NCBI GenBank assembly: GCA_964503465.1
Contig: CAZCYZ010000002.1
Coordinates: 6,995 to 70,994 of the forward strand
Length of the DNA: 64,000 nt
Source of the DNA: an uncultured Gammaproteobacteria bacterium
Lineage (GTDB): Bacteria; Patescibacteriota; Microgenomatia; UBA12405
Reading direction: 5' to 3'
Shown here: piece by piece, positions 5,902 through 50,579 of the stretch
Layout: each line of letters begins with the position of its first letter
Position numbering within the stretch: position 1 is the first letter of the stretch
Position numbers and translations under genes: made by a program
The notes under the pieces: model-generated
Databases searched by the model: none
Seen by the model: only the letters and a program-made list of their open reading frames with translations
Told to the model about the DNA's origin: nothing

Positions 5902-7116
5902 TTGACTATGAAAAAGATACTAATGGAGATAGTCAAGAAATTACCATTAGTGGTTTGGATAGGGATGTTGTCGATTGCCAGCTGGGGTTTTGCGGTCAGA
6001 ATGTCGAGTCGCAACCAGGGAAGTTATGTACGAAGCCGAAGAAGCGAAGTGATGACTAACTGGGGGGCAAACTTGGATCAAAAATCCCCCTACCTTAAGT
6101 CAGAAGTATATTATGAAGGTGGAATAAAAAATGTTGAAGACGATAAGGTGGTGGCCAAGAATGTGAAGGTAGGTAGTAGCTTGGTGAAGGCCAAAATAAA
6201 AATGGACTCGCGGCGAAAAGGTTTGGCATATTTTCCGACTTTTGTGACCGATTTTGAGGGTATTTATAAGGTAAAAAACGAAAGCAGTCGAAACGTAAAA
6301 GCTTATTTGAACTTTCCCTTACCTGGAAGTGGTAATTTGGTGTGGAATGTGGAGGTATTGGCTAATGGTAGTAGTGAGGGAGCAGTAATTAACAGTCGGG
6401 AGTTGGCTTGGAGTGGGTTGATGAAGGCAGGGGAGGAAAAGGAAGTAGTGGTGCGATATGCGGCCAGGGGGATGGAGGAATTTTCCTATTCGTTGGCGGA
6501 AAGTAGCGGATTACAGGATTTTTATTTGCAGGTGGAAGTGGATGGGGCTGATAGGATCGATTTTCCCAGCGGGGCTTTGTCGCCGGTTAAAAGTGTTGAG
6601 GATAGTGAAAACAAAAAATGGAATTTGGAATGGAAGTTTGACAAAGTGTTAACCAGTCCCGAAATTACTGTCAAAACTTTTGCCAAACAAAATATTTCGG
6701 AACAAGTGGCTAAGCTTTTTTGGGTGGCACCGTTGTTGCTGGTGGCTTTCCTGATGGCGATTATTGGACTTGGGTTTTATAGAGGAAAATCAGTAGCGAC
6801 TTTCGACAATATGGTGATGTCGGCATTGTATATGGTCTATTATCCGTTATTGGCTTATGTAGTAAGTGTTTTTGAAAATATTAATATTTACCAGGGACTG
6901 GCAATTTCGGCAGGAGTGATTAGCTTGATATTGGGGTATTATTATCGGTTTTTGTTTGATACCAAATGGGCACTAACAACCGGAGTGATGTTGCAAGTTA
7001 TTTTTATGGCATTCTTCCCAGTGGCGATGCTGATTCCGCAGTTGACCGGATTTTTAGTGGTTTGCGGAGTGATTGCAATATTGGGGGTAGTGGTGAAATT
7101 AAGAGTGGAAAGATAA
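5902..7116 (+). CDS. CreD-like inner-membrane protein (N-terminal anchor, large extracytoplasmic domain, C-terminal multi-TM block)
   Basis: Architecture and local similarity to E. coli CreD (FPSGALSPVKSVEDSENKKWNLEW vs FLGDFLPAKREISESGFQAHWQ) judged by eye. Confidence 0.45.
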   Translation: MTMKKILMEIVKKLPLVVWIGMLSIASWGFAVRMSSRNQGSYVRSRRSEVMTNWGANLDQKSPYLKSEVYYEGGIKNVEDDKVVAKNVKVGSSLVKAKIKMDSRRKGLAYFPTFVTDFEGIYKVKNESSRNVKAYLNFPLPGSGNLVWNVEVLANGSSEGAVINSRELAWSGLMKAGEEKEVVVRYAARGMEEFSYSLAESSGLQDFYLQVEVDGADRIDFPSGALSPVKSVEDSENKKWNLEWKFDKVLTSPEITVKTFAKQNISEQVAKLFWVAPLLLVAFLMAIIGLGFYRGKSVATFDNMVMSALYMVYYPLLAYVVSVFENINIYQGLAISAGVISLILGYYYRFLFDTKWALTTGVMLQVIFMAFFPVAMLIPQLTGFLVVCGVIAILGVVVKLRVER

Positions 7117-13668: not shown

Positions 13669-14526
13669 TTAGGTCAAGTTGTTTTTGATTTGATCCCAAA
13701 GGATTGGAGTTTTGCCTTCGAGCTGAACGGTAAGAGGGTTGATGGCGATGATTTTGAGACGTCGGTGGTTGGGGGTGGTGGTCCAAACTCCGGGCCAGGG
13801 GTGAAGAGCACGATAGAGAGTGTTGAGCTGGGGAGCAAAGTGTGGGTCAAGGAAATTGGCCCAAGTGACAAAACCGTCGTCACGGGTTAATTGGCGAGCA
13901 TAGGTTGGATCGTTGACTGTTGGTCGTCGAGTTTGAGGGATGGGGGTGATTTGGTTAATTTTAGGAAGAGTGTCGATAATTAAATCGGCACTAAGGCGGT
14001 AGAGTTTGTCATAAAGAGTTTGGCGAGTATCAGTGGGGGTAATGGGAATGGTGGATTGGGTCAGGATATCCCCCTGATCGAATTTGGCCGACATTTTGAT
14101 AAGAGTGACTCCAGTCTTGGATTCGCCTTTTAAAATGGCCCATTCAGCCGGGAAACGGCCGGCATAATCGGGAAGAAGTGATTGATGAGCATTAAGAGAG
14201 GTGTTGAGGGGAAACTCAAGCCATGTTTTTGGGATTAACCGGCCAAAACCTGCAACGATAATAAAATCAGGTCGGTCTAGTTTCGGGGGGATAGTGTCAA
14301 GGTTTTCCAGGGGGAACACTGGTAATTGATGGTCAAGACAATATTGGTGAACAGCGGTGGGGGTGATAATCCCACGGTCGCCGGGACGGGGAGGGGTAGT
14401 CACCACGGCGATAATTTTAATGTTGGGGGAATGGTGAAGAGCCTCAAGAGTAAGAACCGAGTAGTGCTGGAAGGAGCCAAAAAATATGATATGGCTAATT
14501 GACATTGGTATTTGGTTTTGTTTCAA
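13669..14526 (-). CDS. fmt: methionyl-tRNA formyltransferase
   Basis: HQSLLPDYAGRFPAEWAILKGESKTGVTLIKMSAKFDQGDIL formyl-transferase core. Confidence 0.8.
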   Translation of the reverse strand: MKQNQIPMSISHIIFFGSFQHYSVLTLEALHHSPNIKIIAVVTTPPRPGDRGIITPTAVHQYCLDHQLPVFPLENLDTIPPKLDRPDFIIVAGFGRLIPKTWLEFPLNTSLNAHQSLLPDYAGRFPAEWAILKGESKTGVTLIKMSAKFDQGDILTQSTIPITPTDTRQTLYDKLYRLSADLIIDTLPKINQITPIPQTRRPTVNDPTYARQLTRDDGFVTWANFLDPHFAPQLNTLYRALHPWPGVWTTTPNHRRLKIIAINPLTVQLEGKTPILWDQIKNNLT

Positions 14527-14566
14527 TAAATTTGGTATCGTTATGTATTATATTTTAAATTAAATA

Positions 14567-14833
14567 ATGTTTGCTAAAAAAGAAAGTAAAAGTTGGCTAG
14601 AGAAGAATGGGGCTATTATGGTTATTATTTTGATGTCGGTGACTATAGTGGCAGGTTTGGTATTGGTAAGTAGAAATCAAGATATTCGAGACGAGGCGGC
14701 GGGGAAAAAGCCCGGTAGTGGTATTCAACAAGGTGGTGTTGGTTCTGGTGGTGGGAAAAAACCTGGTAGTGATGTGCAACAGCAGGATAGTGTTCGGCAA
14801 ACCAAGAAACCACGAAGTAGCAACCAGCAGTAA
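14567..14833 (+). CDS. small membrane-anchored protein with post-TM SRNQDIRDEA motif and Gly/Gln-rich tail
   Basis: Single N-terminal TM; shares the Q[DE][TI]R motif with proteins at 42363 and 47278. Confidence 0.45.
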   Translation: MFAKKESKSWLEKNGAIMVIILMSVTIVAGLVLVSRNQDIRDEAAGKKPGSGIQQGGVGSGGGKKPGSDVQQQDSVRQTKKPRSSNQQ

Positions 14834-14862
14834 CTAACGTCTTGGCTTTGATATAATTTGGA

Positions 14863-15420
14863 GTGAGAAAAATCGTTCTATACCCTGATTCTGTGTTAAG
14901 ACAGAAGTCGGACAAGGTGGAGGCGGTGGACGATCAGTTGTTAGCCGAAATTGAGGAAATAAGAACGATGTTGGAGGACAAGGATAATGGGGCTGGGTTG
15001 GCGGCGCCGCAGGTGGGGATATTGAAACGTTTTTTTGTAACCAAGGAGATGAAGAGTCGGAAGGCGGTGACGATGATAAATCCAGAAATAATAGCTGGTG
15101 TGGGTGAGAAAACTTTTCCAGTAATTAGATTGGAAAAAGGGGGAGAGGAGAATTTTTTGGAGGGCTGTTTGTCGTTTCCGGGTATTTGGGGAACAGCCAA
15201 AAGATACCTAAGGATTGAAGCTAAATGGGAGGTGATAAAAAGAGGAAAATTAGTTGAAATAAGAAAAACATTGGTTGGATTTGAGGCAATTGTGTTTCAA
15301 CATGAGACAGATCATCTGGATGGGGCGCTTTTTGTTGATCGAATCAAAGAAAGTGATGGAAAACTATACCGACAAACGGGGGAGAAAATGGAGGAAATAT
15401 CAATTGGGGATTTTGTTTAA
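14863..15420 (+). CDS. def: peptide deformylase
   Basis: GLAAPQVG, EGCLSFPG, QHETDHLDG motifs; GTG start. Confidence 0.9.
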   Translation: MRKIVLYPDSVLRQKSDKVEAVDDQLLAEIEEIRTMLEDKDNGAGLAAPQVGILKRFFVTKEMKSRKAVTMINPEIIAGVGEKTFPVIRLEKGGEENFLEGCLSFPGIWGTAKRYLRIEAKWEVIKRGKLVEIRKTLVGFEAIVFQHETDHLDGALFVDRIKESDGKLYRQTGEKMEEISIGDFV

Positions 15421-25689: not shown

Positions 25690-26296
25690 TTGTTTTTCAA
25701 TTTATAAATGTGTGGAGTGTAAGAGAAAAATATGCGGGATTCAAGGAATGTCAATATGGGTGGTGGTTGTGTATAATCGAAAGGTTGTAGTCAGCGGCAA
25801 GGGTAGTTGGTTTTGAGCCTGGGTCGGAAACAACAGCCGCGATCGCCATCGTCAACATCACAATCTTTTTCATTAGTGCAAATTGAACAGTGGTCATCAA
25901 TTAGAGCTTTGAGGGCTTGGAGGTTTTGGGGAGAATAGGGTGAACCGGGCGGAATTCGACGTCGCTTGGTTTTGGCAGGTGAACGGGCGATGGTGATAGC
26001 TTCTTGAATAGCGATAGAAGAGTTTACTACTTTTGGGAAGGATTAGTAAAAATATGTAATATATATGTATTTTCTTGTTGACTTTCTGGAAAGTGAATAG
26101 TATTATAGGTGCCATGAATAAAGAAGCAATCGACCCAAATAAGACTGTTATTACCGGAAAACCGTTAGTTGAAGTAACTGGGGTAGCTGCTGCACCTCCT
26201 AAGCAAGATGTGTCTAGTTCAGGAGAAAGAATACAGAAAGTGGGAATTCCACCAGAGCGAGTGCAGAAACTGATTGACTTTATCAGAGGTATGTAG

Positions 26297-35195: not shown

Positions 35196-36296
35196 ATGTT
35201 TGGTGAACGAAAAAGAAATAAAGGAAAGTCGTTAGTTGTTGCTGGAGTAGCTCGAGATATAGCTTCAACCAGACCACGGGCGGAAGTGCTTATGTCGCCG
35301 AAAGAAGTGGAGAGGCGGAGACTTGCACAGGCTTGGAGGTGGTGGGACCAGGAGGGCAGGGAGAGGTCGGAGGCTGATTTGGCGGCGGCGGACCGGGCTG
35401 ATACTGAGAGAGAGGAACAAATCAGTGGTCTAAGGCGATCTTTGGATCGTAGGGAGCCAGGAGAAAGAGTTCGGAAGGTTGTCGAGTATAGGTTGAACCC
35501 AATGACTCCAGCTAGGGCTGCAAAAGAGGCGGCGGCGGTGTTGGTGGAAGAAGAGAATGACCCCGTACAAAAAATGCAATTAATAGCGAGTTTAGCAGTT
35601 GAAGAAAAAGCAGAAAGGGATAGAAGGGCTAAAGAAAAGAATGATCGCAGATTGAAAAATGAAGCTGAGTTAAGAGAATGGTTAGACGGTGGTGGTAGTC
35701 GGAAAGCATTTAAAGAAGCAGCACAGAGAGTAGCAGATATGGTTGGTGCTGGGATGACAGAAGAGCAAATGGAGCAAGCTGTTAAATTAGGCAAACATAA
35801 GGCACGTGTATTTAGGTTTGGTAAAGACGGGACTTGCGAGCAGGTTGACCAGGAGGTTGGCACAGTTGAAACTTACTTGTTGCAGGCAATTTTGGACGAA
35901 AGGAATGCCAAAAGGAGAGATGGTCACAGGAGAGCAGCCTTTGAAAGAGCTAGAGAACAGACGGGTGAAGGTGTTGCGAGTTTTTCTAGGGCTTTGGGGG
36001 GGCTGGCAGGGGAGCGGGTCGTAGGTTCACTTACTCGATTGGCACTTGCCGCAGGCGAGGAGGCAGGGAGGAGATATGACGGAAGCGTCAGACAATTAGC
36101 GGACGGTAATCCTAGAAGAGAGCAACAGGTGCAACAAAGAAGAGCGGTGGTGCAGGCGGGAGTTGACAACTCACCAGCGATGAGGATATTGCGTCGAATG
36201 GAACAAGCCTTGTCAGGTGTTCGCGACGAAGTCCATGGTTCGAGAGTTAGATTGCAGGGTCGTGGTGAAAATGAGGATGAAGATACTAGAAAATAA
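35196..36296 (+). CDS. hypothetical charged/coiled-coil protein
   Basis: Arg/Glu/Ala-rich 366-aa ORF immediately downstream of the ribozyme. Confidence 0.4.
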   Translation: MFGERKRNKGKSLVVAGVARDIASTRPRAEVLMSPKEVERRRLAQAWRWWDQEGRERSEADLAAADRADTEREEQISGLRRSLDRREPGERVRKVVEYRLNPMTPARAAKEAAAVLVEEENDPVQKMQLIASLAVEEKAERDRRAKEKNDRRLKNEAELREWLDGGGSRKAFKEAAQRVADMVGAGMTEEQMEQAVKLGKHKARVFRFGKDGTCEQVDQEVGTVETYLLQAILDERNAKRRDGHRRAAFERAREQTGEGVASFSRALGGLAGERVVGSLTRLALAAGEEAGRRYDGSVRQLADGNPRREQQVQQRRAVVQAGVDNSPAMRILRRMEQALSGVRDEVHGSRVRLQGRGENEDEDTRK

Positions 36297-36319
36297 TTAT
36301 CAGTATCAACGCAATTAAG

Positions 36320-40207: not shown

Positions 40208-41572
40208 TTAAAATGGACTTAACTCAAGCAAAACAGCAGTGTTGGGATCAAAGTAAATATTGGTCATGAAACGGTTACTAACAACGTTAAGGCTTTGACT
40301 AGTGGTGGCACCAAGATATTTGGTGGTTTTGAGTTGATATTTACCCGGGTTAAGACCGTTGAAGGTGACAGGAACGGTTTCAACATGTTGACCGCGCGGG
40401 TCGTAGTTGACCAGTAAGGTTTGGATAACTCCATTATTGAGGGAAGATATTGAGGTAACGTGGGAACCATCACCACTACTACTTAACCGTTGACCGGCAA
40501 GTTGATTTAGGAATTGGAGGGCGTAGTAGCGGGGTTTGATTTTGGCACCGCTACTGGGGTGAGTAATCAAGCCCCAGCCGGAGGATTTGTCCGATCGGGG
40601 GGAAGGACCATCGACCGGTTCGAAAGTAAAAAGACGATGAATTTTGCCTGACAGTCGGGTAGAAAGAGAAATAAGATGAATACCAGAAAGGGAGTTGTCA
40701 TACCAGGGGTCGGGTTCGGGGTTGGGGCCAACTTCGGTGATTAAACGTTCAATGTCAAAATATTGAGGATAATCGTCAAGAATACTGTTGAGGTTTTCGA
40801 AATCGTTGTCGTAGTCATCGGGGTTTTTGGAATATTTGTGCCAGGAAATAAAATCAAGCCGGAGACGGTTAGTGGAAGCAGTTTTGAACAACGCTTTGAT
40901 CCAATTACTGTAGTAGGCGGTGATGGCTGGACCACCAATCTTGTAGGAGGTAGAACCGGCACCGTCAACAATGGCTTTGGCGGTTTGGGTATAAAGGGTG
41001 GAGTAGGAAGGGGATTTGCCGTAATGCCAACCACCAAACAAATCGGGTTCATTCCAAACCTCGTAGTAAATACCACTAATTTTCTTTTCGACTGAATAAC
41101 GGTAAGCGGTGGCTTTGACTAGTTGATACCACTGGTTCCAGTCGCTAGGTTCACCGGCGTTCTGGCCATTCTTGGCCATAGAGGCAGTGGTGTAGGAGAC
41201 AGATAGCATTGGTCGGGCGCCAGTGGCCAAGATACTATTAATTACAGTGTCAAGCTTGGAGAAATCGTAGTTTCCTGGTCCCTGATAAACCTGATAATAG
41301 TCAAAGAGATGGTCGACACGGATAAGTTGGGGCTGAAGAGCGCGAACTTGGTTGATAATTGGGCCAATCATGTCTAGAGGTTCTTCTCCGCCTTGGGACA
41401 GGTTTCGCCAAAGAGAGGAGGGAACTTTGCCTTGGATTGATTTGGTGTCGATACTAATGTTAGCTGGAGTGGGAGCGGCAGATTTGCGAAGATCAATGAC
41501 AGTTTTGACTCCAAAAATAAGGAGTGGCAGAGCCAGTAGCAATAGTATGGTCTTAATAGTTTTGTTGGCCAT
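40208..41572 (-). CDS. secreted glycoside hydrolase (GH39/GH5-like TIM-barrel family)
   Basis: Signal peptide MANKTIKTILLLLALPLLIFG; YYEVWNEPD (catalytic acid/base NEP motif). Confidence 0.55.
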   Translation of the reverse strand: MANKTIKTILLLLALPLLIFGVKTVIDLRKSAAPTPANISIDTKSIQGKVPSSLWRNLSQGGEEPLDMIGPIINQVRALQPQLIRVDHLFDYYQVYQGPGNYDFSKLDTVINSILATGARPMLSVSYTTASMAKNGQNAGEPSDWNQWYQLVKATAYRYSVEKKISGIYYEVWNEPDLFGGWHYGKSPSYSTLYTQTAKAIVDGAGSTSYKIGGPAITAYYSNWIKALFKTASTNRLRLDFISWHKYSKNPDDYDNDFENLNSILDDYPQYFDIERLITEVGPNPEPDPWYDNSLSGIHLISLSTRLSGKIHRLFTFEPVDGPSPRSDKSSGWGLITHPSSGAKIKPRYYALQFLNQLAGQRLSSSGDGSHVTSISSLNNGVIQTLLVNYDPRGQHVETVPVTFNGLNPGKYQLKTTKYLGATTSQSLNVVSNRFMTNIYFDPNTAVLLELSPF

Positions 41573-42362: not shown

Positions 42363-45300
42363 TTGAAAACAGGTAAACTTTTTTCAGACTATATTAAGGT
42401 TAAAAATAACAAAATGAATAAAATCTTTCGAAGGATAGGTAGTAATAGTGGTTTGGCTCAAATTCCCTTGGTAATTGGTTTGTTGATAATGGCGGTGGCA
42501 ATACCAGTAGCTACCAAATTAAGTCAGACGGAACAGGATACAAGAGATAAGGCGGCTGCTAAGGTATGTACTGTGGGAAATTTGGGAACTCGTTGTACTA
42601 ATAGTAGTGGTCAGTCTTGTCAGGAATATAGATTAGCGAATTGCGATATTTTATGTAATCAAAATTGTACTGGTGGGGGTGGAGGAAGTACTCCAAAGTT
42701 GCCAAAACCGACTAGTGGTGGCGGTGGAGGATCGACTTGTGAAGCTGGTCGTGAGAACGTTGGTTGCGGGAAAACCGGGCGAGTGAGTGGTGATTGTCGA
42801 CAAGCGGTGACATTTAACTGCTCAAGTAATCAGATGGGAGTTTTGGAAATTAGCAGGGATTGTACTTGTCGGGCGACTTGTGTTAATTCGTCTTCTTGTG
42901 CTGAACCAACCTCTCCACCCCGGGCAACTAATACACCAGAACCGTCATGTCAGGCGGGTCGTCAGGAGTTTTTGGGTGAATGTGGCAAGAAAGGTCGGGT
43001 GTCTACTATAAGGTTTGGATCGAGGTCGTATGAATGCGCCCAGCCGGTGGATTTTAATTGTCAGAGTGGACAAATTGGAGTTATTGAAATGGCTGGACCA
43101 AATTGTGTTTGTAGTGCCAGGTGTTTGAACGAATCTACTTGTGCCGCGGCCACGCCGACTACTAGACCAACTTCTCGACCAACTTCGACTTCGACTCCTC
43201 GGCCGACCACAGCTTGTGTTCGAAATGGATTAACGACAGGCTCAACGTCGAATTGTTGTAGTAAAAGTAGTGTTACTTATGCTGGTACTGGTGGGAGTCT
43301 TGTCACCTGTTGTGCTGCTAATGGAACAGTGGCGGAAAATAAGGCTGAATGTTGTAGTGGTAATGGGACAGTGATCACAGGTGGGCGGGACCAAGGTGCT
43401 TATACTTGTGGTGCTGCGCCAACCTCTACTCCTAGACCGACAGCTACTCCGACAGCGTCAAATTTGGGGAGTTGTGCCGCCACTTCAAGCCATCCAGTAA
43501 TGGCTAATGGTGAGACCTACTGTCAGAGTCCGTATCTTCTTGGTTCTCGAGCTTGGGCTTGTAACAATGGTACGGCAACAGTGAGAACAAACTATTTGAA
43601 TACCCGAAATTGTGACGGTAATGTCCCAACCGGGTTGCCAGTGGGTAACTGTGCTGCCACTGGTAATCATCCAGAGATGACTAATGGTGGATCCTATTGT
43701 CAGACCCCTTATTTGGCTGGTTCCAGAAGGTGGACTTGTAACAATGGGGATGCAACCATATCGCGTAATTTCTTGGCTACTAGAAATTGTGAAGAGACTG
43801 TTCCGACTGGAGCAGGAGGGAGTTGTACAGCAACTACCAATACTCCAGCTCTAGCTAATGGTGAGTCTTATTGTCAGAGTCCTTATTTGGCTGGTTCCAG
43901 AAGGTGGACTTGTAACAATGGAGTAGTATCGGTATCTCATGACTTTTTATTGACTAGAAATTGTAGTGGAACAGTGCCGACTGGATTACCGGCGGGTAAC
44001 TGTGCTGCGTCGCCAAATCATCCGGCCATGACTAACGGTCAGTCTTATTGTCAAAGTCCGTATCTTTTGGGATCAAGAGTTTGGACTTGTAGTAATGGAG
44101 ATGCAGTAATAACTAATAATTACGAGGCGACTCGAAATTGTAATGGAACTATTCCAACAGGATTACCGGCAGGTAACTGTCCGGCCACTTCAAGCCATCC
44201 AGTAATGGCTAATGGTGAGACCTACTGTCAGAGTCCGTATCTTCTTGGTTCTCGAGCTTGGGCTTGTAACAATGGTACGGCAACAGTGAGAACAAACTAT
44301 TTGAATACCCGAAATTGTGACGGTAATGTCCCAACCGGGTTGCCAGTGGGTAACTGTGCTGCCACTGGTAATCATCCAGAGATGACTAATGGTGGATCCT
44401 ATTGTCAGACCCCTTATTTGGCTGGTTCCAGAAGGTGGACTTGTAACAATGGGGATGCAACCATATCGCGTAATTTCTTGGCTACTAGAAATTGTGAAGA
44501 GACTGTTCCGACTGGAGCAGGAGGGAGTTGTACAGCAACTACCAATACTCCAGCTCTAGCTAATGGTGAGTCTTATTGTCAGAGTCCTTACAGATTAGGA
44601 TCAAGAAGATGGCATTGCGACAATGGGGTGGTATCGGTGGAGTCTATATATCTTCTTACTAGAGATTGTCGGGGAACCGTGCCAACTGGAACGACTCCGG
44701 GAAATTGTGCCGCGACTGACGAGACTCCGGTTTTGACTAACGGTCAGTCTTATTGTCAAAGTCCGTATAGGTTGGGGTCAAGAAGATGGGTTTGTAACAA
44801 TGGGGTGGTATCGGTAACAAATAATTATTTGACTACAGCCAATTGTGCCAGTTCATCACTGACTCCAATTCCTGGTTGTGTGATAGTCAATCCTTTAGGA
44901 GGGTGTCTATTAACACAAACAGCGATTGACAATCTAAACGAGTGTAGTGCGATAAGCTCTTTGCCTATTAGTAGCAGTTTGAGGGCGAGTGTATGTAGTG
45001 CTGTTGGTTTGAGGGCAGTGTTACCACTTCATTGTCAATGGTCAAATGGAAGTTGTGTACCTCGTTACAATGTCAATCCTTTTACTTGTAAAGTTGGAGG
45101 AGTGGCTGGTGTCTGTACTACTCGAAGTAACTGTAGTGGAACCTTTGACCAAACACAGGTTGTTGACTGTGGCGGTGCTCTAGGGCCTTTGTATACTGTT
45201 CTGGGTGTTGGCTGTTGTGTGACTGGAGGCACTGGAGGAATAGTAACTCCAATTCCGGGTTGTATTGTTGCTAATCCGGCTGGTGGTTGTTGGTTGACCC

Positions 45301-47294
45301 AGGCTGATTTGAATAATCTTAATGAGTGTAGTGCGATAAATTCTATTCCCTACATAGGGGCGAGTTTAAAGTCAAGTATCTGTAGTGCAGTGGGACTTAG
45401 GCCGGTGTTACCACTTCATTGTCAATGGTCAAATGGAAGTTGTGTACCTCGTTACAATGTCAATCCTTTTACTTGTAAAGTTGGAGGAGTGGCTGGTGTC
45501 TGTACTACTCGAAGTAACTGTAGTGGAACCTTTGACCAAACACAGGTTGTTGACTGTGGCGGTGCTCTAGGGCCTTTGTATACTGTTCTGGGTGTTGGCT
45601 GTTGTGTGACTGGAGGAGCTAGTCCTACCCCAACTGCTACCCCAACTGTTACGGTGACAGGGATTTGTGGTAGTGTTTGTGGAAGAGTCCCCTTACTAGT
45701 GAGGTCAGCTTGTGTTGCTGCGTGTACTAATATTGTTAATAATGGTTGTGCAGCGGGAAGAAATACCTTTATTGATGGGTGTATGACTACTTGTAATAGG
45801 TCGTCGGTGTTGAGGTTGGCGGGTGTTTGTTCGAATATATGTCGTCTGGCCGCCGATGAGATTTGTACTGATATACCAGGTACGGATTGTCCTAATCCGG
45901 GAACTACTACTTGTGAAGATGGTAGGGTACGGGCCTGTAAAGGCGATGGTGCTTGGGGCGAATGGATTACCTGTTTGTCGGGTCAGTGTAACACCGATGG
46001 AACAGAGTGTAAGTTCCCCCCAATATCGCCGTTGCCAACTAAGGGTGTTCGAGGAACACCGACAGGAACCAGGTGTCAAGATGGGGTAAGGGAGTTAAGA
46101 TGTGGAATTCAGGGTCGAGTAACTGGAACTGAATTTGGCTGTGAGCGTCCAGTAGATTTTAACTGTGCCGCAAATCAAATGGGTACGATTCGGGTTAGTC
46201 CTGATTGTCGATGTCAGCCGGTGTGTATGAATTCTTCGGCTTGTAGTTTAATTCCAACTGGTCAGCCGACAGGAACCAGGTGTCAAGATGGGGTAAGGGA
46301 GTTAAGATGTGGAATTCAGGGTCGAGTAACTGGAACTGAATTTGGCTGTGAGCGTCCAGTAGATTTTAACTGTGCCGCAAATCAAATGGGTACGATTCGG
46401 GTTAGTCCTGATTGTCGATGTCAGCCGGTGTGTATGAATTCTTCGGCTTGTAGTTTGGAGCCGACTCCGACTACTGGAAGGGGAATAACACCGGTAGTAA
46501 CAAGAGAGCCGACAACTCCTCCAGGACCAGGTTCATGTGACCAGAAATGTCCGACGAGTGACGGTAAAATCTTGAAAAACTGTACTCCGCCAGATAGTGA
46601 TGGCTCTAGTCAGGATAGCAATTGTGACCGTAGGGGTAGAGTTGAGCCCTGTGGTGGTAGCCAGTACTGCTGTGATGGAAGTAAGTGGAGTACTGACATG
46701 GCAGCTTGCGGAAATGTACCTACCACCCCTCCCGGTTGTGACCAAAAGTGCCCAACAAGTGATGGAAAAATCTTGAAAAACTGCACTCCACCAGACAGTG
46801 ATGGTACCAGTCAGGATAGCAATTGTGACCGTAGGGGTAGAGTAGAATCTTGTGGTGGTAGCCAGTACTGCTGTGATGGAAGTAAGTGGAGTACTGACAT
46901 GGCAGCTTGTGGGTCGGGTAAGTGTAAACGGTGCCCAGCAGACTTTAAGTGTTACACCGATGGGAGTGAGTATCGGTGGTTTGTGACAGGATATGCAATG
47001 GAGGGATTTGAGCTGGTGGCTTCACCGGATACCACTAGTTGTGGTGGTGTGACTCAACCGAGTTATATGGGCAAACAGAAGGGTGATGCCAATTGTGATG
47101 GCTTTGTCGATGGTTATGACTATTCGATTTGGAGAACGGAGTATGTGGATGTTAGCGGCGGTGAGCCATTAGTTCGAGATAATTGGGAGGCTGACTTCAC
47201 TGGTAACGACGGTCTGTGTGATGGAGTGGTGGATGGATACGATTACTCCTTGTGGAGAAATCAATATAAAGATTTAAATGGAGGAGGAAACTAA
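42363..47294 (+). CDS. giant Cys-rich repetitive surface protein (1643 aa) with N-terminal anchor and C-terminal dockerin-like repeat pair
   Basis: About ten 55-aa modules (GNCAAT..HP.M.NG.SYCQ.PYL.GSR.W.CNNG...TRNC); duplicated 70-80-aa modules; C-terminal DANCDGFVDGYDYSIW and DGLCDGVVDGYDYSLW. Confidence 0.7.
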   Translation: MKTGKLFSDYIKVKNNKMNKIFRRIGSNSGLAQIPLVIGLLIMAVAIPVATKLSQTEQDTRDKAAAKVCTVGNLGTRCTNSSGQSCQEYRLANCDILCNQNCTGGGGGSTPKLPKPTSGGGGGSTCEAGRENVGCGKTGRVSGDCRQAVTFNCSSNQMGVLEISRDCTCRATCVNSSSCAEPTSPPRATNTPEPSCQAGRQEFLGECGKKGRVSTIRFGSRSYECAQPVDFNCQSGQIGVIEMAGPNCVCSARCLNESTCAAATPTTRPTSRPTSTSTPRPTTACVRNGLTTGSTSNCCSKSSVTYAGTGGSLVTCCAANGTVAENKAECCSGNGTVITGGRDQGAYTCGAAPTSTPRPTATPTASNLGSCAATSSHPVMANGETYCQSPYLLGSRAWACNNGTATVRTNYLNTRNCDGNVPTGLPVGNCAATGNHPEMTNGGSYCQTPYLAGSRRWTCNNGDATISRNFLATRNCEETVPTGAGGSCTATTNTPALANGESYCQSPYLAGSRRWTCNNGVVSVSHDFLLTRNCSGTVPTGLPAGNCAASPNHPAMTNGQSYCQSPYLLGSRVWTCSNGDAVITNNYEATRNCNGTIPTGLPAGNCPATSSHPVMANGETYCQSPYLLGSRAWACNNGTATVRTNYLNTRNCDGNVPTGLPVGNCAATGNHPEMTNGGSYCQTPYLAGSRRWTCNNGDATISRNFLATRNCEETVPTGAGGSCTATTNTPALANGESYCQSPYRLGSRRWHCDNGVVSVESIYLLTRDCRGTVPTGTTPGNCAATDETPVLTNGQSYCQSPYRLGSRRWVCNNGVVSVTNNYLTTANCASSSLTPIPGCVIVNPLGGCLLTQTAIDNLNECSAISSLPISSSLRASVCSAVGLRAVLPLHCQWSNGSCVPRYNVNPFTCKVGGVAGVCTTRSNCSGTFDQTQVVDCGGALGPLYTVLGVGCCVTGGTGGIVTPIPGCIVANPAGGCWLTQADLNNLNECSAINSIPYIGASLKSSICSAVGLRPVLPLHCQWSNGSCVPRYNVNPFTCKVGGVAGVCTTRSNCSGTFDQTQVVDCGGALGPLYTVLGVGCCVTGGASPTPTATPTVTVTGICGSVCGRVPLLVRSACVAACTNIVNNGCAAGRNTFIDGCMTTCNRSSVLRLAGVCSNICRLAADEICTDIPGTDCPNPGTTTCEDGRVRACKGDGAWGEWITCLSGQCNTDGTECKFPPISPLPTKGVRGTPTGTRCQDGVRELRCGIQGRVTGTEFGCERPVDFNCAANQMGTIRVSPDCRCQPVCMNSSACSLIPTGQPTGTRCQDGVRELRCGIQGRVTGTEFGCERPVDFNCAANQMGTIRVSPDCRCQPVCMNSSACSLEPTPTTGRGITPVVTREPTTPPGPGSCDQKCPTSDGKILKNCTPPDSDGSSQDSNCDRRGRVEPCGGSQYCCDGSKWSTDMAACGNVPTTPPGCDQKCPTSDGKILKNCTPPDSDGTSQDSNCDRRGRVESCGGSQYCCDGSKWSTDMAACGSGKCKRCPADFKCYTDGSEYRWFVTGYAMEGFELVASPDTTSCGGVTQPSYMGKQKGDANCDGFVDGYDYSIWRTEYVDVSGGEPLVRDNWEADFTGNDGLCDGVVDGYDYSLWRNQYKDLNGGGN
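43470..44590. repeat. near-identical tandem direct repeat (~0.4 kb identical core within a 705-bp period) inside the giant gene
   Basis: Identical antisense ORFs reported at 43485..43670 and 44190..44375; DNA identical by eye from ~43470-43885 and 44175-44590. Confidence 0.7.
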
Positions 47295-48579
47295 AATGAC
47301 TATCCGAAGTAAACAGATGTCGGTTGCGTCACTAATAATACCTTTGTTGTTGGTGGCAGCCTTGATAGCTGGTTTAACCTTAGTTAAAACTAATCAAGAA
47401 ACACGAAGGGGGGCGTATTTTGCCAGCACCAAGATGTTGTTACAACCAGAGTCGTCGACAAAGAGGGTGGGGGAGGAAATACCTTTTGCTTTGTATGTGG
47501 AGACTCCTGCAAAAGTAGACTTTGTTAAGGCTAAAATCTGCTATACTAACTTGATAAGTCTGGATGGGAGTGATTTAGATTCAAAGATAGTTGTTAATCG
47601 AGAAGCTTTCGATGTGGCAGTTTTGACAAAGGTGGGGGAGTCAACGATTCCCGAACAGAAATGTTTAACAATGTCGATCAAATCAGAGAAGGCGGCGGAG
47701 AATTTAAAATCCGGATTGGTTCAGGTGGCCTTAATCAAGTTTAAGGCTTTGGCCAAAGGAAACGGTAATTTGGTTATTGACAAAGCCTCTTCACAAGTCG
47801 GCGGTCACAATGCTGGTAAAACCGATAAAAGTATCAAGATTGAAGAGGTGGCAGGAGCTAGCTTCACCATAACTGAAGGTGTAACTGGAGAGTGTGGTTG
47901 GTGTGGGCTTGATTGTATTCGTAAAGCCGCGGGCATGAATTGTATCGATGTAGCTCCGCCAGTTGGACAGAGATGTGTTGAAGTTGATGGTAACTGTGTG
48001 GCTCAACCAATTAGTACCGGAGGAGATTCGGTTTTGAACTACAAGATATTGTTTGGGGGTTTGCAATCAGATGCCAAGTGTGTGGCGAATTGGCCAGTAT
48101 CGATTACTGTTTTGGCAAATGGAGTATCCAAAACTTATAGCCATACTCCAGTCAGGGATGGTGATTCTTTTAGTGGTAGTTTAGTATTGACTGGATTTAC
48201 GGCTAGGGAAGGGGTGGCGGTTTTTATCAAAGGTTCGAAGCATCTTCAGATGAAGTATGGTAAGGACAATCAAGTTGGGGCGTATGCAAAGGCGGGGGGT
48301 GAAATTAGCCTGACCGATTCGGTATCTACCAGTCCATGGTATGTTTTTTCGGGATATCCACTGGTGGCAGGTGATGTTACCGGAGTCAACTCTGATGCCC
48401 AAGATGGATGGATTAATGGAGTTGACTTTTCTTATGTCAAGCAGCGTTCCTTGACACATGAAATGGTGGCAGAAGGAGCGTATCTTCAGGCCGATTTGGA
48501 TGGTAACTGTCAGGTTAACAGTAATGATGTTAACGTATTAAAGATTTCTCTCAATGAAAAACAGGGAGAGCTGTATTAA
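47278..48579 (+). CDS. membrane-anchored protein with cohesin-like N-terminal domain and C-terminal dockerin-like repeats
   Basis: N-terminal TM plus KTNQETRR motif; C-terminal DGWINGVDFSYV and DLDGNCQVNSNDVNVL. Confidence 0.5.
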   Translation: MEEETKMTIRSKQMSVASLIIPLLLVAALIAGLTLVKTNQETRRGAYFASTKMLLQPESSTKRVGEEIPFALYVETPAKVDFVKAKICYTNLISLDGSDLDSKIVVNREAFDVAVLTKVGESTIPEQKCLTMSIKSEKAAENLKSGLVQVALIKFKALAKGNGNLVIDKASSQVGGHNAGKTDKSIKIEEVAGASFTITEGVTGECGWCGLDCIRKAAGMNCIDVAPPVGQRCVEVDGNCVAQPISTGGDSVLNYKILFGGLQSDAKCVANWPVSITVLANGVSKTYSHTPVRDGDSFSGSLVLTGFTAREGVAVFIKGSKHLQMKYGKDNQVGAYAKAGGEISLTDSVSTSPWYVFSGYPLVAGDVTGVNSDAQDGWINGVDFSYVKQRSLTHEMVAEGAYLQADLDGNCQVNSNDVNVLKISLNEKQGELY

Positions 48580-48588
48580 GGAGAAAAT

Positions 48589-49176
48589 ATGAAAAAAGAA
48601 CAAATAATAAGGTTTTTAATTCCAGTAGTGGCAGTGTTGGTAATTGTTGAAAGTGTGGTTCTGGTTACTGGGGCTTTAAAGAGGAATAGAGAAGTGGTGC
48701 AGGATAAGCCGTTAGTTGCGGACGAAGAGTCGCGGTTGATCCAGATGGGTTTGGATGCGCCTAAATCATCGATAGCAGTGGGCGAGAAATTGCCGGTAAA
48801 CTTTAGATTGGTATCAACTAAGGATTTGGCGGTAGACGCCTTTGAGACGTATATTAAATACGATCCGACGGCTTTTGAAGTTTCCGGTTTAAGTTTTAAC
48901 AATGATTTACCAGCTCCAGCGATAGCAAAAATCAGTCGACAAAAAGGGATGATTATTGTTACTTATCTTGTTGATGAGGCGAGGGGTTATCAGTTGAAGT
49001 CGGGGGTTGAAGTGATGTTGGCAAGCTTTAATGTGACCGCTAAAAAAGCTGGTTCGTATGATTTTGAAATTACCACTAGCACTGGTGAGCAAGGCTCTGC
49101 TAGTATGGTAGTAGAGAATGCAACATCGAAGGTGATTCCATTTGATGGTAGCAGTCTAAAAGTTAACGTTTTTTAA
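48589..49176 (+). CDS. cohesin-domain protein (membrane-anchored)
   Basis: VGEKLPVNFRLVSTKDLAVDAFETYIKYDPTAFEV...ASFNVTAKKAGSYDFEI matches the cohesin beta-sandwich signature pattern. Confidence 0.5.
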   Translation: MKKEQIIRFLIPVVAVLVIVESVVLVTGALKRNREVVQDKPLVADEESRLIQMGLDAPKSSIAVGEKLPVNFRLVSTKDLAVDAFETYIKYDPTAFEVSGLSFNNDLPAPAIAKISRQKGMIIVTYLVDEARGYQLKSGVEVMLASFNVTAKKAGSYDFEITTSTGEQGSASMVVENATSKVIPFDGSSLKVNVF

Positions 49177-49185
49177 ATAAAGATA

Positions 49186-49887
49186 ATGAAAAAAACTGCC
49201 CTTAGTTTGGTAATGACCTTGGCCTTGATGGGGGCAGGGGTTAAAGGAGTAATGGCCGGGCCCCATCTGACTTTATCTCCTTCGGCGGGGAATTATACGG
49301 TTGGGTCTGAGTTTACGGTGACAATTGGGGTGGATTCGGGAACAGAGAAAACGGCGGCGATTGATATTTGGGCGAATTTTGACTTGTCCAAGCTGGAGGT
49401 GGTGTCGATTACAAAGACTGCCCCTCCGGATCCAAATAATGACGATTTTCCTTTTAGTTTGGGCCAGAACATTAAGAACAGTGAAGGTAAATTTGATGTA
49501 AGTTGCACCTCAAGTAACATGAGTGGATTGGAAACCGTGGCAATTAAGAGGGACTTGGTGGCGGTAGTGTTTAAAGCTAAGGCTGAAGGAGTGGCATCGC
49601 TTAATTTTAGTTGCTCATCAGGCTCAAGTATTGATACTAATATTTTTAATGCCAGTGCGGTAGATGTAATTGAGTGTTCGAGTAATCAAAGCGGATCTTA
49701 CACTATTACGGCTGCTTCAAGTGGTGGTACGAGCGAGCCAACGGCGACACCAACACCAACGACAGCGGCAACAACAACGACTACAAGTTCTAGCTTGCCA
49801 CAGACTGGGGTGATTGAAAATACGGTTGGATTAGTGGTTTTTGGTTTGATGTCGGTGCTTGGAGCGGCAGTTTTACGTTGGCTATGA
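49186..49887 (+). CDS. cohesin-like surface protein with LPQTG sortase sorting signal
   Basis: Signal peptide; cohesin-like core; Thr-rich linker; LPQTG (49795-49809) followed by hydrophobic segment and RWL tail. Confidence 0.6.
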   Translation: MKKTALSLVMTLALMGAGVKGVMAGPHLTLSPSAGNYTVGSEFTVTIGVDSGTEKTAAIDIWANFDLSKLEVVSITKTAPPDPNNDDFPFSLGQNIKNSEGKFDVSCTSSNMSGLETVAIKRDLVAVVFKAKAEGVASLNFSCSSGSSIDTNIFNASAVDVIECSSNQSGSYTITAASSGGTSEPTATPTPTTAATTTTTSSSLPQTGVIENTVGLVVFGLMSVLGAAVLRWL

Positions 49888-50579
49888 GTAGGGGAGCGAT
49901 TAACATTAAGACAATATTGATTTTGGTTATTTTGGTGTTGGTGGGAGTGTTGAGTGTTTTGGGTATCAATACTGCCAAAACATTGATTGGAAGTGCGGCG
50001 GCTGGAGTTGAGCCCAAAAATGTAATTGCTAAGCCGGATATGGTGACTGATAGTGGCCGGGAAGAGTTTACGGCGAAAGTTGAGTGGACTTCGGAAAAAC
50101 CAGCGATGGGAATTGTCGAGTATGGGACGACACCGGCCAGTTTGCTATTACGGGCAGCAGAATCGGAACAGTCAACCAGCCATTCGGTTAAATTGTCACC
50201 CTTAAAATCAAATACTAGTTATTATTTTCGAATTAAAATAGGGGAAGAAGTCTTTGATAACAACGGTATTCCCTATTCTTTTAAAACTAAGGCGACAACC
50301 GCGAGTGGGAGCAGTCAGCAACAACCAACAGTGGCGCCAACTAAGCCAGTAGGAGCGGCACCAACGGTGGTTAATGATAAAGGTTGCAATCGTGCGACTG
50401 ACTACAATAAGGATGGGGTGATCAATAGCCTTGACTATGTCGTTTGTATGGGTGGCCAAAAGAGTGGTACTCCGTCGGCTAGTAGTAGTGCTAGTAGTTG
50501 CAAGGCAGGAGTGGATTTTGATGGCAATGGGGTGGCGAATAGTCTTGATATGATCAAGTGTTTACAAAACAAGAAGTAA
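49878..50579 (+). CDS. FN3-like domain protein with C-terminal dockerin (two repeats)
   Basis: VEWTSEKPAMGIVEYGTTP...TSYYFRIK (FN3-like); DYNKDGVINSLDYVV and DFDGNGVANSLDMI dockerin repeats. Confidence 0.6.
   Translation: MAMSRGAINIKTILILVILVLVGVLSVLGINTAKTLIGSAAAGVEPKNVIAKPDMVTDSGREEFTAKVEWTSEKPAMGIVEYGTTPASLLLRAAESEQSTSHSVKLSPLKSNTSYYFRIKIGEEVFDNNGIPYSFKTKATTASGSSQQQPTVAPTKPVGAAPTVVNDKGCNRATDYNKDGVINSLDYVVCMGGQKSGTPSASSSASSCKAGVDFDGNGVANSLDMIKCLQNKK

What the first reader, a model, noticed from the sequence alone, without database searches (positions are those of the whole stretch)
14669..14698. Recurrent post-transmembrane Q[DE][TI]R motif in several surface proteins (possible new sorting or processing signal)
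Three proteins begin with one hydrophobic anchor immediately followed by a similar motif. At 14567 the motif is VSRNQDIRDEA. In the giant repeat protein (about 42513-42566) it is TKLSQTEQDTRDKAAA. In the cohesin/dockerin protein at 47278 (about 47386-47415) it is VKTNQETRRGA. A fourth protein, the CreD-like one at 5902, has SSRNQG after its first TM. The shared spacing, TM then S/T-x-N/E-Q-[DE]-[TI]-R-[DR]-x-A, suggests a common N-terminal processing or anchoring signal rather than chance.
Basis: seen in the sequence. Interest (0 to 1): 0.55.

Follow-up and report, generated by a model that had tools for sequence, protein, structure and literature searches.

The report
Conserved signal-peptide motif in CPR bacteria
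Many exported proteins of one group of ultra-small (CPR/Microgenomates) bacteria share a strictly conserved short motif right after their N-terminal membrane-targeting segment, most likely an unusual cleavage cassette of the secretion signal that no database or paper searched here describes.

Summary
Three window proteins (88-aa ORF at 14567, giant protein at 42414, cohesin/dockerin protein at 47296) carry Q-[DE]-[TI]-R-x-x-A about 10 residues after an N-terminal hydrophobic segment.

Chance is excluded: 3 hits in 304 post-TM positions against 0 in 19,272 elsewhere, and 0 of 20,000 shuffles reach the observed count. The motif is kept in orthologs (113 of 120 GH39; most of the cohesin family). 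A 34-column profile finds 329 protein clusters among 1.84 billion representatives, nearly all matching at the N-terminus, in at least 22 groups with no detectable similarity between their mature parts. Every named source is Patescibacteria/Microgenomates.

Carriers are cohesin, dockerin, glycosidase and sortase-tailed (LPXTG-like) proteins. True membrane anchors (PBP2, HtrA, CtpA, RseP) lack the motif.

Best reading (about 0.55): a lineage-specific, extended and conserved c-region of cleavable Sec signal peptides, cut after the invariant Ala. The basic or Asn residue at -3 is non-canonical, and canonical AxA signals sit in the same operon. A dedicated processing or sorting enzyme therefore remains possible (about 0.2). 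No Pfam or NCBIfam model and no paper was found.

The parts
14567..14833 (+). 88-aa small exported protein. N-terminal signal MFAKKESKSWLEKNGAIMVIILMSVTIVAGLVLVSRNQDIRDEA, then a low-complexity G/K/P/Q-rich tail.
   Evidence: translation. Present as a predicted protein in the public library (P0323). No Pfam or NCBIfam hit. No sequence or positional ortholog between fmt and def in relatives.
14669..14698 (+). The flagged motif SRNQDIRDEA. The core Q-D-I-R-D-E-A is 14678-14698, with the invariant Arg and Ala inside it.
42414..47294 (+). Giant Cys-rich repeat protein with C-terminal dockerin-like Ca loops. N-terminus MNKIFRRIGSNSGLAQIPLVIGLLIMAVAIPVATKLSQTEQDTRDKAAA.
   Evidence: Orthologs in 39 syntenic loci keep ...PVATKLVQxNQDTRNxAA.
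42534..42554 (+). Motif core QDTRDKA of the giant protein.
47296..48579 (+). Cohesin (N-terminal) / middle domain / dockerin (C-terminal) adaptor protein. P0001 starts at Met 47296; the ORF could start at 47278.
   Evidence: (P0001, 100% identical); AF2 model; Foldseek hits to cohesins; weak Pfam dockerin hit.
47395..47415 (+). Motif core QETRRGA. The first cohesin beta-strand starts 5 residues after the Ala.
   Evidence: 90 homologs were inspected: most keep NQ[DE]TR[RK]GA, and a minority have the amide variant NQNTQ[RK]GA.
40208..41572 (-). GH39-family glycosidase with N-terminus MANKTIKTILLLLALPLLIFGVKTVIDLRKSAAPTPAN.
   Evidence: Pfam PF01229, E = 6e-21. 113 of 120 orthologs carry [DE][LIT]R[KR][GS]A.
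41477..41494 (-). Motif core DLRKSA of GH39.
   Evidence: The Ala is invariant in alignment A6, where a 39%-identical ortholog has T-R-A at that column.
49186..49887 (+). Contrast, not a member. Cohesin protein with a classical short signal peptide (MKKTALSLVMTLALMGAGVKGVMA|G) and a C-terminal LPXTG anchor.
   Evidence: Pfam Cohesin and Gram_pos_anchor; TIGR01167.
48589..49176 (+). Contrast, not a member. N-terminally TM-anchored cohesin (LIPVVAVLVIVESVVLV) with neither the motif nor an AxA site.
49878..50579 (+). Contrast / borderline. Dockerin protein whose hydrophobic segment is followed by NTAKTLIGSAAAG. Its orthologs read NTAKTY[LM]SGA[SA]A, a 10-residue c-region ending in G-A at the same spacing but with a canonical small residue at -3.
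5902..7116 (+). SSRNQGSYVRS lacks the acid-x-Arg-x-x-Ala core.

Best explanation
The motif is the conserved, unusually long (about 10-residue) c-region of a subclass of cleavable Sec-type signal peptides. This subclass is specific to Microgenomates (Shapirobacteria, Levybacteria and relatives; Patescibacteria/CPR).

Architecture:
- a Lys-rich n-region;
- a 15-22-residue hydrophobic core;
- then L-V-x-[QK]-N-Q-[DE]-[TLI]-R-[KRN]-x-A.

Proposed sequence of events: the protein is exported through Sec. A type I signal peptidase (or a specialised paralog) cuts right after the invariant Ala. This releases the mature protein, whose first folded domain begins 3-5 residues later. The mature protein is then held at the surface by its own C-terminal device (dockerin binding to cohesins, or a sortase LPXTG-like tail) or is free (GH39, small peptides).

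Shown here: the existence, conservation, position, taxonomic restriction and cargo spectrum of the motif. Inferred: Sec dependence, cleavage, and the exact cleavage site.
For: (1) Fixed geometry. The Ala lies about 10 residues after the hydrophobic core, and the core is 15-22 residues long (mode 17-18), as in signal peptides of monoderm bacteria.

(2) Ala and its successor. The Ala is invariant in homology-derived alignments (A1; A6; A5). Pro never follows it (0 of 334 unique segments), although Pro is found at +2 in 15. This matches the type I signal peptidase rule (established knowledge).

(3) Canonical site in a divergent ortholog. A 39%-identical GH39 ortholog that lacks the motif has a canonical T-R-A at exactly the aligned Ala.

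(4) Cargo must be released.
- 18 of 110 profile hits have Pfam dockerin and 19 have cohesin.
- 61 of 382 carriers have dockerin-like Ca loops.
- Five carriers end in an LPXTG-like motif plus TM plus basic tail: IPETG, LPEAG, VPEAG, VPTTG, PPVTG. For P0307 there is a weak TIGR01167 hit.
- Sortase is near-ubiquitous in Microgenomates (PMC6744442).

(5) Proteins expected to stay N-terminally anchored lack the motif: PBP2, HtrA, CtpA/S41, M23 peptidase and the TM-cohesin.

(6) The folded cohesin domain starts 5 residues after the Ala (AF2 model; Foldseek).

(7) Selection acts on the protein. All Arg and Ala codons are used at the invariant positions.

(8) Breadth. 329 clusters at E <= 1e-3, matching at residues about 3-55, in at least 22 groups with no detectable similarity between their mature parts.
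Against: - The residue at -3 relative to the proposed cut is Lys, Arg or Asn (93% of segments). This violates the canonical small/aliphatic -3 rule.
- The c-region is about twice the usual length.
- The hydrophobic core is at the long end for a cleaved signal.
- AF2 draws the motif as a continuation of the TM helix, though at low confidence (pLDDT 54).
- Canonical A-x-A signals with 5-residue c-regions occur in the same operon (49186 and its orthologs). One peptidase would therefore have to accept two quite different site types.
- No signal peptidase gene could be examined: none lies in the roughly 1.1 Mb of sequence held.
- No cleavage has been observed experimentally, and SignalP could not be run.
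Confidence: 0.55

Rival explanations
1. A dedicated N-terminal sorting or processing signal with its own enzyme. It would be a mirror image of the tripartite C-terminal signals (LPXTG, PEP-CTERM): basic tail, TM helix, signature motif on the outer face. A specialised peptidase would cut it (a second S26 paralog like B. subtilis SipW, a rhomboid, or another membrane protease), and it might route cargo to a particular surface structure such as the cohesin-dockerin assembly.
For: - The motif is far more conserved than signal peptides normally are. In A1, R and G-A are 90% or more conserved against 38% mean column identity. 113 of 120 GH39 orthologs carry it.
- It marks a stable subset of exported families, while canonical AxA signals persist in the same operon across about 30 genomes.
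- The -3 residue is basic or Asn, which is non-canonical for type I peptidase.
- The acid and the Arg change together. [DE]..R occurs 122 times and N/S/I..Q 11 times. The mixed pairings acid..Q and N..R never occur, and there is a single N..E. The amide change is seen in both homology-derived families tabulated, cohesin and GH39, and the amide form also appears in small proteins with giant-type N-termini in the def loci. This implies a specific recognised conformation.
- The motif is enriched in cohesin/dockerin proteins.
Against: - No candidate enzyme is encoded next to the carriers. The adjacent rseP sits in its usual rpsB-tsf-frr neighbourhood.
- The cargo is heterogeneous (GH39, tiny peptides, Ig-domain proteins), and some dockerin proteins lack the motif.
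- All positive evidence is equally compatible with an ordinary peptidase that has lineage-specific specificity.
- No phylogenetic profiling could be done.
Confidence: 0.2
2. An uncleaved signal-anchor. The hydrophobic segment stays as an N-terminal membrane anchor, and the motif is a retained juxtamembrane element. It could be a helix cap or stalk, or a contact site for wall, S-layer or a partner protein.
For: - The hydrophobic segment is 15-22 residues long.
- AF2 predicts one continuous helix, residues 10-41, through the motif.
- Two positive charges directly after the core and a basic -3 residue are unfavourable for classical cleavage.
- The conservation could reflect a structural role in the mature protein.
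Against: - Carriers with C-terminal sortase-type tails or dockerins would be tethered twice.
- Bona fide N-terminal anchors in the same genomes (PBP2, HtrA, CtpA, M23, TM-cohesin) never carry the motif.
- Pro is excluded at Ala+1.
- A canonical T-R-A occupies the same column in a divergent ortholog.
- Only 3-5 residues separate the Ala from the first domain, which would pin large enzymes and a 1,600-aa protein flat on the membrane.
Confidence: 0.15
3. A shared leader module spread by common descent or recombination among surface-protein genes, with no function beyond being a working signal sequence. The conservation would be historical.
For: - Many carriers share other modules (dockerin, Cys-rich repeats), so single-linkage clustering merges 161 of 293 carriers.
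- The giant-family N-terminus (GLAQIPLMIGLL...PVATKLVQ) is clearly one homologous module reused on proteins of 80-1,600 aa.
Against: - The hydrophobic cores of the GH39, cohesin and giant families are unrelated, while the polar motif is the same.
- Synonymous sites are saturated while the residues are fixed.
- The motif is kept in GH39 orthologs down to 60% identity, more strictly than most of the mature enzyme surface.
- At least 22 groups show no detectable similarity between their mature parts.
Confidence: 0.08
4. Chance similarity of polar residues after hydrophobic segments.
For: The motif is short and was defined post hoc from three sequences.
Against: - 0 of 20,000 shuffles reach the observed count.
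- Fisher p = 4e-6 in the window and 2e-62 in the loci.
- The motif is conserved in orthologs.
- 329 profile hits, almost all at the N-terminus.
Confidence: 0.01

Closest known systems
Sec / type I signal peptidase signal peptides (n-h-c regions, von Heijne -3,-1 'AxA' rule)
   Same: Basic n-region, hydrophobic core, polar c-region ending in Ala. No Pro at +1. The cargo is extracellular. A divergent ortholog has a canonical T-x-A at the same column.
   Different: The c-region is about 10 residues long rather than 3-7, and its sequence is fixed. The -3 residue is Lys, Arg or Asn instead of small or aliphatic. There is an invariant Arg at -4 paired with an acid at -6. The motif marks only a subset of exported families, next to canonical AxA signals.
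YSIRK-G/S signal peptides of Gram-positive cocci (also KxYKxGKxW and ESPR extended signals)
   Same: A conserved, lineage-restricted sequence motif inside the signal peptide of a subset of surface proteins (many sortase substrates), coexisting with ordinary signal peptides. In staphylococci the YSIRK motif directs where secretion occurs (PMC5962339, abstract seen).
   Different: YSIRK lies at the n/h boundary, upstream of the hydrophobic core. The present motif lies downstream, at the presumed cleavage site. There is no sequence similarity, and no localisation data exist here.
Bacteroidetes 'Q-rule' (Gln at +1 after signal peptidase I cleavage, cyclised to pyroglutamate)
   Same: A phylum-level peculiarity of the residues around the signal peptidase site, found by proteome-wide statistics. 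(Recalled from my own knowledge, not tested here.)
   Different: The Q-rule concerns the first mature residue. Here the conserved Gln/Asn residues lie upstream of the proposed cut, and the +1 residue is Ala, Ser, Thr or Tyr.
SipW-dependent signals (TasA/TapA of Bacillus subtilis)
   Same: A second, specialised signal peptidase serving a few matrix or surface proteins alongside the housekeeping enzymes. This is a precedent for two classes of signals in one cell. (Own knowledge.)
   Different: No second peptidase has been identified here. SipW substrates have no comparable conserved motif.
Tripartite C-terminal sorting signals (LPXTG/sortase, PEP-CTERM/exosortase, GlyGly-CTERM/rhombosortase)
   Same: A signature motif on the outer face next to a TM helix, with a basic cluster on the cytoplasmic side. 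One signal is shared by many cargo proteins. The signal is restricted to a lineage.
   Different: The signal is at the opposite end of the protein and has opposite polarity, so transpeptidation of the cargo through an acyl-enzyme is not possible. No partner enzyme is known. Some carriers have an LPXTG-like tail as well.
Twin-arginine (Tat) and type IV prepilin (class III) signals
   Same: The cohesin family reads T-R-R-G-A-x-F, which superficially resembles [ST]-R-R-x-F-L-K. The giant family has G-[LF]-A-Q-I-P-L before the core, which resembles a prepilin peptidase site.
   Different: The Arg pair lies after the hydrophobic core, not before it, and is R-N or R-K in other families. There is no Glu at +5, and most carriers have no Gly before the core. 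True pilins in the same genomes (GFTLIELL...) lack the motif.

Membership tests
Sec-type signal peptide cleaved by type I signal peptidase | Positively charged n-region followed by a hydrophobic h-region within the first ~40 residues | tested here: met
   All carriers show this, e.g. MKK.../MKNK... followed by a 15-22-residue core.
Sec-type signal peptide cleaved by type I signal peptidase | Small neutral residue at -1 | tested here: met
   The Ala is invariant in homology-derived alignments A1, A5 and A6.
Sec-type signal peptide cleaved by type I signal peptidase | Small or aliphatic residue at -3 | tested here: not met
   With the cut placed after the invariant Ala, -3 is K 44%, R 29%, N 20%. 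If the cut is one residue later, -3 is G/S in GH39 and the cohesin family but Q/K/M/L in the giant family.
Sec-type signal peptide cleaved by type I signal peptidase | No proline at +1 | tested here: met
   0 of 334 unique segments have Pro after the Ala. 15 have Pro at +2, and Pro reaches 29% at +4.
Sec-type signal peptide cleaved by type I signal peptidase | Actual removal of the leader from the mature protein | not testable with these tools
   Only indirect evidence: dockerin or LPXTG-like C-termini on carriers, and absence of the motif from true anchors.
Tat signal peptide | [ST]-R-R-x-F-L-K motif between the n- and h-regions, upstream of the hydrophobic core | tested here: not met
   The Arg-containing motif lies downstream of the core, and the second basic residue is often Asn.
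Lipoprotein signal peptide | Lipobox L-x-x-C at the end of the h-region | tested here: not met
   No Cys in or next to the motif. The window does have one true lipobox protein, 32136 (...LLLTGC), without the motif.
Type IV prepilin (class III) signal | Gly at -1 before the hydrophobic segment, with Glu at +5 | tested here: not met
   The GH39 and cohesin families show no conserved prepilin-type Gly-Phe/Leu cleavage site before the core and no Glu at +5 (read). The giant family has G-[LF]-A-Q-I-P, with Pro in place of Glu5. Genuine pilins in the related loci have GFTLIE and no motif.
YSIRK-G/S signal peptide | YSIRK...G/S motif at the n/h boundary | tested here: not met
   No such sequence. No NCBIfam or Pfam signal-motif model hits at E <= 10.
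Any curated family (Pfam-A, NCBIfam 20.0) | Significant match of the N-terminal 50-60 residues to a model | tested here: not met
   Searches returned only chance-level hits (E about 0.1) to unrelated TM-containing families.

The most novel reading that the evidence does not exclude
The motif is the signature of a previously unrecognised N-terminal protein-sorting system of CPR bacteria. It would be the mirror image of the LPXTG and PEP-CTERM tripartite signals. A dedicated membrane peptidase would read it and commit a defined set of surface proteins (cohesin-dockerin components, glycosidases, giant adhesins, small peptides) to a particular export site or surface assembly.
Probability: 0.2. Interest if true: 0.8.

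Novelty: new variant of a known kind. Interest (0 to 1): 0.55.

Why it matters
CPR/Patescibacteria are a large share of bacterial diversity. They live attached to other cells, and most of their surface proteins have no annotation.

- A lineage-specific, easily searched signal gives a direct way to list the exported proteome of Microgenomates.
- It would explain cases where standard predictors waver between 'signal peptide' and 'TM anchor'.
- It would let mature N-termini be set correctly for structure prediction and expression.
- The non-canonical basic -3 residue and the coupled acid-Arg pair predict either a signal peptidase with altered specificity or a second, dedicated enzyme. Both are testable.
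- If the enzyme is dedicated, this would be the first N-terminal counterpart of the sortase/exosortase type of one-enzyme-many-cargo system.

Tried and rejected
- Word-indexed profile search with the 34-column motif alignment. The third returned only 2 hits because the word index does not collect such short, TM-rich matches. The exhaustive representative search was used instead.
- Orthologs of the focal 88-aa protein. A metagenome scan found none. In 80 def-containing loci of relatives, the space between fmt and def holds no TM+motif ORF. The gene is therefore lineage-specific, and ortholog conservation cannot be shown for that one example.
- Looking for the responsible peptidase. rseP next to the cluster is explained by the ancestral rpsB-tsf-frr-rseP synteny.
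- Taxonomy of the profile hits. Two cluster look-ups gave names for only three clusters: a 'Patescibacteria group bacterium', 'Candidatus Shapirobacteria bacterium', and an uninformative 'hypothetical protein'.
- PDB sequence search with the profile returned only chance hits to a eukaryotic chloride channel TM helix.
- Literature. Six full-text searches and two papers read turned up no description of the motif.
- Tat, lipoprotein, prepilin and YSIRK readings were rejected on position and sequence (see the membership test).
- An RNA- or DNA-level explanation was rejected because synonymous codons vary freely.

Full report
**Observation.**
- SRNQDIRDEA is at 14669-14698, in an 88-aa ORF (14567-14833).
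- QDTRDKA is at 42534-42554, in the giant ORF. Its likely start is the ATG at 42414.
- QETRRGA is at 47395-47415, in the 47278/47296-48579 ORF.

Each follows a single N-terminal hydrophobic segment. A fourth genuine carrier was missed: the GH39 glycosidase on the minus strand (40208-41572), whose N-terminus reads ...LIFGVKTVIDLRKSAAPTPAN.

**Chance.**
- In all six frames, Q[DE][TIVL]R occurs five times in 64 kb, three of them directly after an N-terminal hydrophobic segment.
- In called genes the strict pattern hits 3 of 304 post-TM positions and 0 of 19,272 others (p = 4e-6). The broader core [DE][TILV]R[RKND].A hits 4 and 0.
- Shuffling residues within the sixteen post-TM segments gives 0.008 expected carriers against 3 observed. 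None of 20,000 shuffles reaches the observed count.
- These window statistics are post hoc. The same core in 39 independent loci gives 44 of 4,779 against 6 of 169,259, with the caveat that orthologs are not independent.

**Orthologs and organism.**
- The 433-aa protein has 90 homologs. One of them (P0001) is identical and lies on a 147-kb NCBI contig. The named sources are Microgenomates, Shapirobacteria and 'Patescibacteria group'.
- Most of these homologs read ...LV[KRS]QNQ[ED]TR[RK]GA[AYT]FA. A minority read NQNTQ[RK]GA, and shorter relatives read NADNRNMA or SLDNRNRAA.
- A genome-collection scan returned 39 syntenic loci, nearly all Candidatus Shapirobacteria. A few MAG titles say 'uncultured Gammaproteobacteria' but share the same gene order.
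- The conserved gene order is rseP, GH39, giant protein, cohesin/dockerin adaptor, TM-anchored cohesin, LPXTG cohesin, dockerin protein.
- The GH39 enzyme has 1,678 homologs. Of the best 120 (all 60% identical or more), 113 carry [DE][LIT]R[KR][GS]A.
- Each protein family keeps its type of leader across about 30 genomes. GH39, the giant protein and the adaptor have the motif. The LPXTG cohesin has a classical short leader ending A-x-A|A-P. The TM-cohesin has neither.

**Breadth.**
- A 34-column profile of leaders from the window and from homology-search hits (A4) was run with HMMER against 1.84 billion cluster representatives. It gave 329 proteins at E <= 0.001.
- Among the 150 listed, all but a handful match at about residues 3-55. 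On inspection, virtually all show a hydrophobic core followed by the motif. New variants include LVKQRQEIRK[KE]AA.
- Lengths range from 44 to 1,569 residues.
- Of 110 scanned with Pfam, 19 have cohesin, 18 have dockerin, a few have Ig-like domains, and most have nothing.
- Even single-linkage clustering of the mature parts, which merges families through shared dockerin and Cys-rich modules, leaves 22 groups with no detectable similarity to one another.
- The few clusters with source names are Patescibacteria or Shapirobacteria.
- In an unbiased sample of 356 kb around the def genes of relatives, only three distinct small proteins carry the motif, all in the amide form. The motif therefore marks roughly 1% of genes in housekeeping regions and is concentrated in surface-protein clusters.
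- No Pfam or NCBIfam model, no PDB chain, no IMG/VR contig and no paper in the held library describes it.

**Anatomy.** The logo is anchored on the Arg, from 334 unique segments.

| Position | Residues |
|---|---|
| -8 | L |
| -7 | V |
| -6 | K/Q |
| -5 | Q/K |
| -4 | N |
| -3 | Q |
| -2 | D/E |
| -1 | T/L/I |
| 0 | R |
| +1 | K/R/N |
| +2 | G/S |
| +3 | A |
| +4 | A/S/T/Y |

- Arg, Ala and the acid are fixed by the selection regex in that count. Arg and Ala are also invariant in MAFFT alignments that were not built that way (A1, A5, A6).
- The hydrophobic core is 15-22 residues long (mode 17-18), and the Ala lies about 10 residues after it.
- Pro never follows the Ala (0 of 334), although it is present at +2 (15 cases) and reaches 29% at +4.
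- All Arg codons (AGA, AGG, CGA, CGC, CGT) and all four Ala codons are used at the invariant positions, so selection is on the peptide.
- The acid and the Arg covary. In the two homology-derived sets, [DE]..R occurs 122 times and N/S/I..Q 11 times. Acid..Q and N..R never occur, and N..E occurs once. The amide pair turns up in the cohesin and GH39 families in that tabulation, and also in small proteins with giant-type N-termini in the def loci. This points to a paired interaction.
- AlphaFold2 draws one helix from the core through the motif (residues 10-41 of P0001), at low confidence over the motif (pLDDT 54). The first strand of a domain follows at residue 45, and Foldseek identifies that domain as a cohesin.

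**Mechanism.** Four lines of evidence indicate that the leader is removed.
1. Cargo. Many carriers end in a dockerin. Five end in an LPXTG-like motif plus TM plus basic tail: IPETG, LPEAG, VPEAG, VPTTG, PPVTG (weak TIGR01167 hit for P0307). Sortase is near-ubiquitous in Microgenomates (PMC6744442). A protein tethered through its C-terminus has no use for a permanent N-terminal anchor.
2. Proteins that must remain N-terminally anchored lack the motif: PBP2, HtrA, CtpA, the M23 peptidase and the TM-cohesin.
3. The invariant Ala and the absence of Pro at +1 fit type I signal peptidase.
4. A 39%-identical GH39 ortholog without the motif has a canonical T-R-A at exactly the aligned Ala. The neighbouring dockerin family has a c-region of the same length ending S-G-A.

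I therefore read the motif as the c-region of a cleavable Sec signal, cut after the Ala. What does not fit a textbook site is the basic or Asn residue at -3, the invariant Arg at -4, the doubled c-region length, and the coexistence with ordinary A-x-A leaders in the same operon. This leaves two sub-possibilities that I could not separate: a housekeeping peptidase with lineage-specific specificity, or a second dedicated enzyme. No peptidase gene lies in the roughly 1.1 Mb of sequence I could hold. The adjacent rseP is explained by ancestral synteny with rpsB-tsf-frr.

**Comparison with known systems.**
- The motif works like a signal-peptide subclass motif. The nearest analogues are YSIRK-G/S leaders and the Bacteroidetes Q-rule.
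- It fails the -3 criterion of the canonical type I site.
- It fails all criteria for Tat, lipoprotein, prepilin and YSIRK signals (see the membership test).
- It resembles the C-terminal tripartite sorting signals in layout only, with reversed polarity.

**Verdict.** This is a real, conserved feature restricted to Microgenomates and apparently undescribed. It is most likely a new variant of the Sec signal peptide (about 0.55). A dedicated sorting system (about 0.2) and a retained anchor (about 0.15) are not excluded. Interest is moderate to good: 0.55.

Noticed in passing
window 42414-42470; L003:461, L005:7398, L006:3511 and many P02xx proteins: The giant-protein family has a second conserved element before the hydrophobic core: [KR]-x-G-[LFMI]-A-Q-[IL]-P-[LV]-[MIL]-I-G-L-L. 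It resembles a prepilin-peptidase site (G|FTLIE) with Pro in place of Glu5. The same leader is reused on proteins from 68 to about 1,600 aa.
   Followed up: partly
window 42363-50579 and the 39 syntenic loci L001-L039: A compact cohesin-dockerin surface-display operon is conserved in Shapirobacteria. It contains a giant dockerin protein, a cohesin+dockerin adaptor, a TM-anchored cohesin with a conserved Glu inside its TM helix (LIPVVAVxVIxESVxL), an LPXTG-anchored cohesin, and a dockerin protein with a purple-acid-phosphatase-N/fn3-like domain. The literature searches made here turned up no description of such a system in CPR bacteria.
   Followed up: partly
leaders of the cohesin family (e.g. 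P0009-P0014, P0025, P0026) and GH39 family (P0155); giant-type small proteins at L056:356-805 and L069:243-716: The acid and the Arg of the motif change together to Asn/Ser/Ile and Gln (NQETRR to NQNTQR). The mixed states acid..Q and N..R were not seen among 134 non-identical leaders, and N..E occurred once. This suggests a side-chain pair rather than independent recognition of Arg.
   Followed up: yes
whole window (1-64000): GC skew (G-C)/(G+C) is very high on the plus strand, 0.16 to 0.55 in every 2-kb bin, on whichever strand the genes lie. This is far above the few hundredths to about 0.1 that I recall as typical for bacterial chromosomes.
   Followed up: no
window ~26000-36500: A segment has raised GC (0.49-0.54 between 30 and 36 kb, against 0.42-0.45 elsewhere) and lower skew. 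It carries a TrwB/VirD4-like coupling ATPase (26297-28468, minus strand), a lipobox protein (32136), an M23 peptidase (33392-34831) and several unannotated ORFs. It looks like an integrated conjugative or mobile island.
   Followed up: no
window 14527-14862: The 88-aa motif-bearing ORF fills the gap between the divergently oriented fmt (13669-14526, minus strand) and def (14863-15420, plus strand). Relatives with 31-57% identical Def have no such gene there, so it is a young or fast-evolving small secreted peptide gene.
   Followed up: yes
window 47278-47296: The giant gene's stop (47292-47294) overlaps the upstream candidate start of the adaptor gene (ATG 47278). The public gene call (P0001) uses the Met at 47296. 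The start is ambiguous, and translational coupling is possible.
   Followed up: no
window 42363-47294 (protein residues ~370-800 and ~1180-1420): The giant protein contains several near-identical tandem duplications of Cys-rich modules, for example two identical ~70-aa TGTRCQDGVRELRCGIQGRV... units and repeated ~70-aa C..T..P.[LM].NG.[ST]YCQ[ST]PY..GSR.W.C.NG units. This suggests recent internal expansion.
   Followed up: no
L040:11047-12456, L042:8601-9956: In more distant CPR genomes, the GH39 ortholog and an fn3/Big_13 sortase substrate have equally long c-regions (…NTVNILTRA|VGAP; …TQRQATVGTKA|GG) but with canonical small -3 residues. The long c-region may be the older trait, and the acid-Arg-basic signature a later specialisation.
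   Followed up: partly
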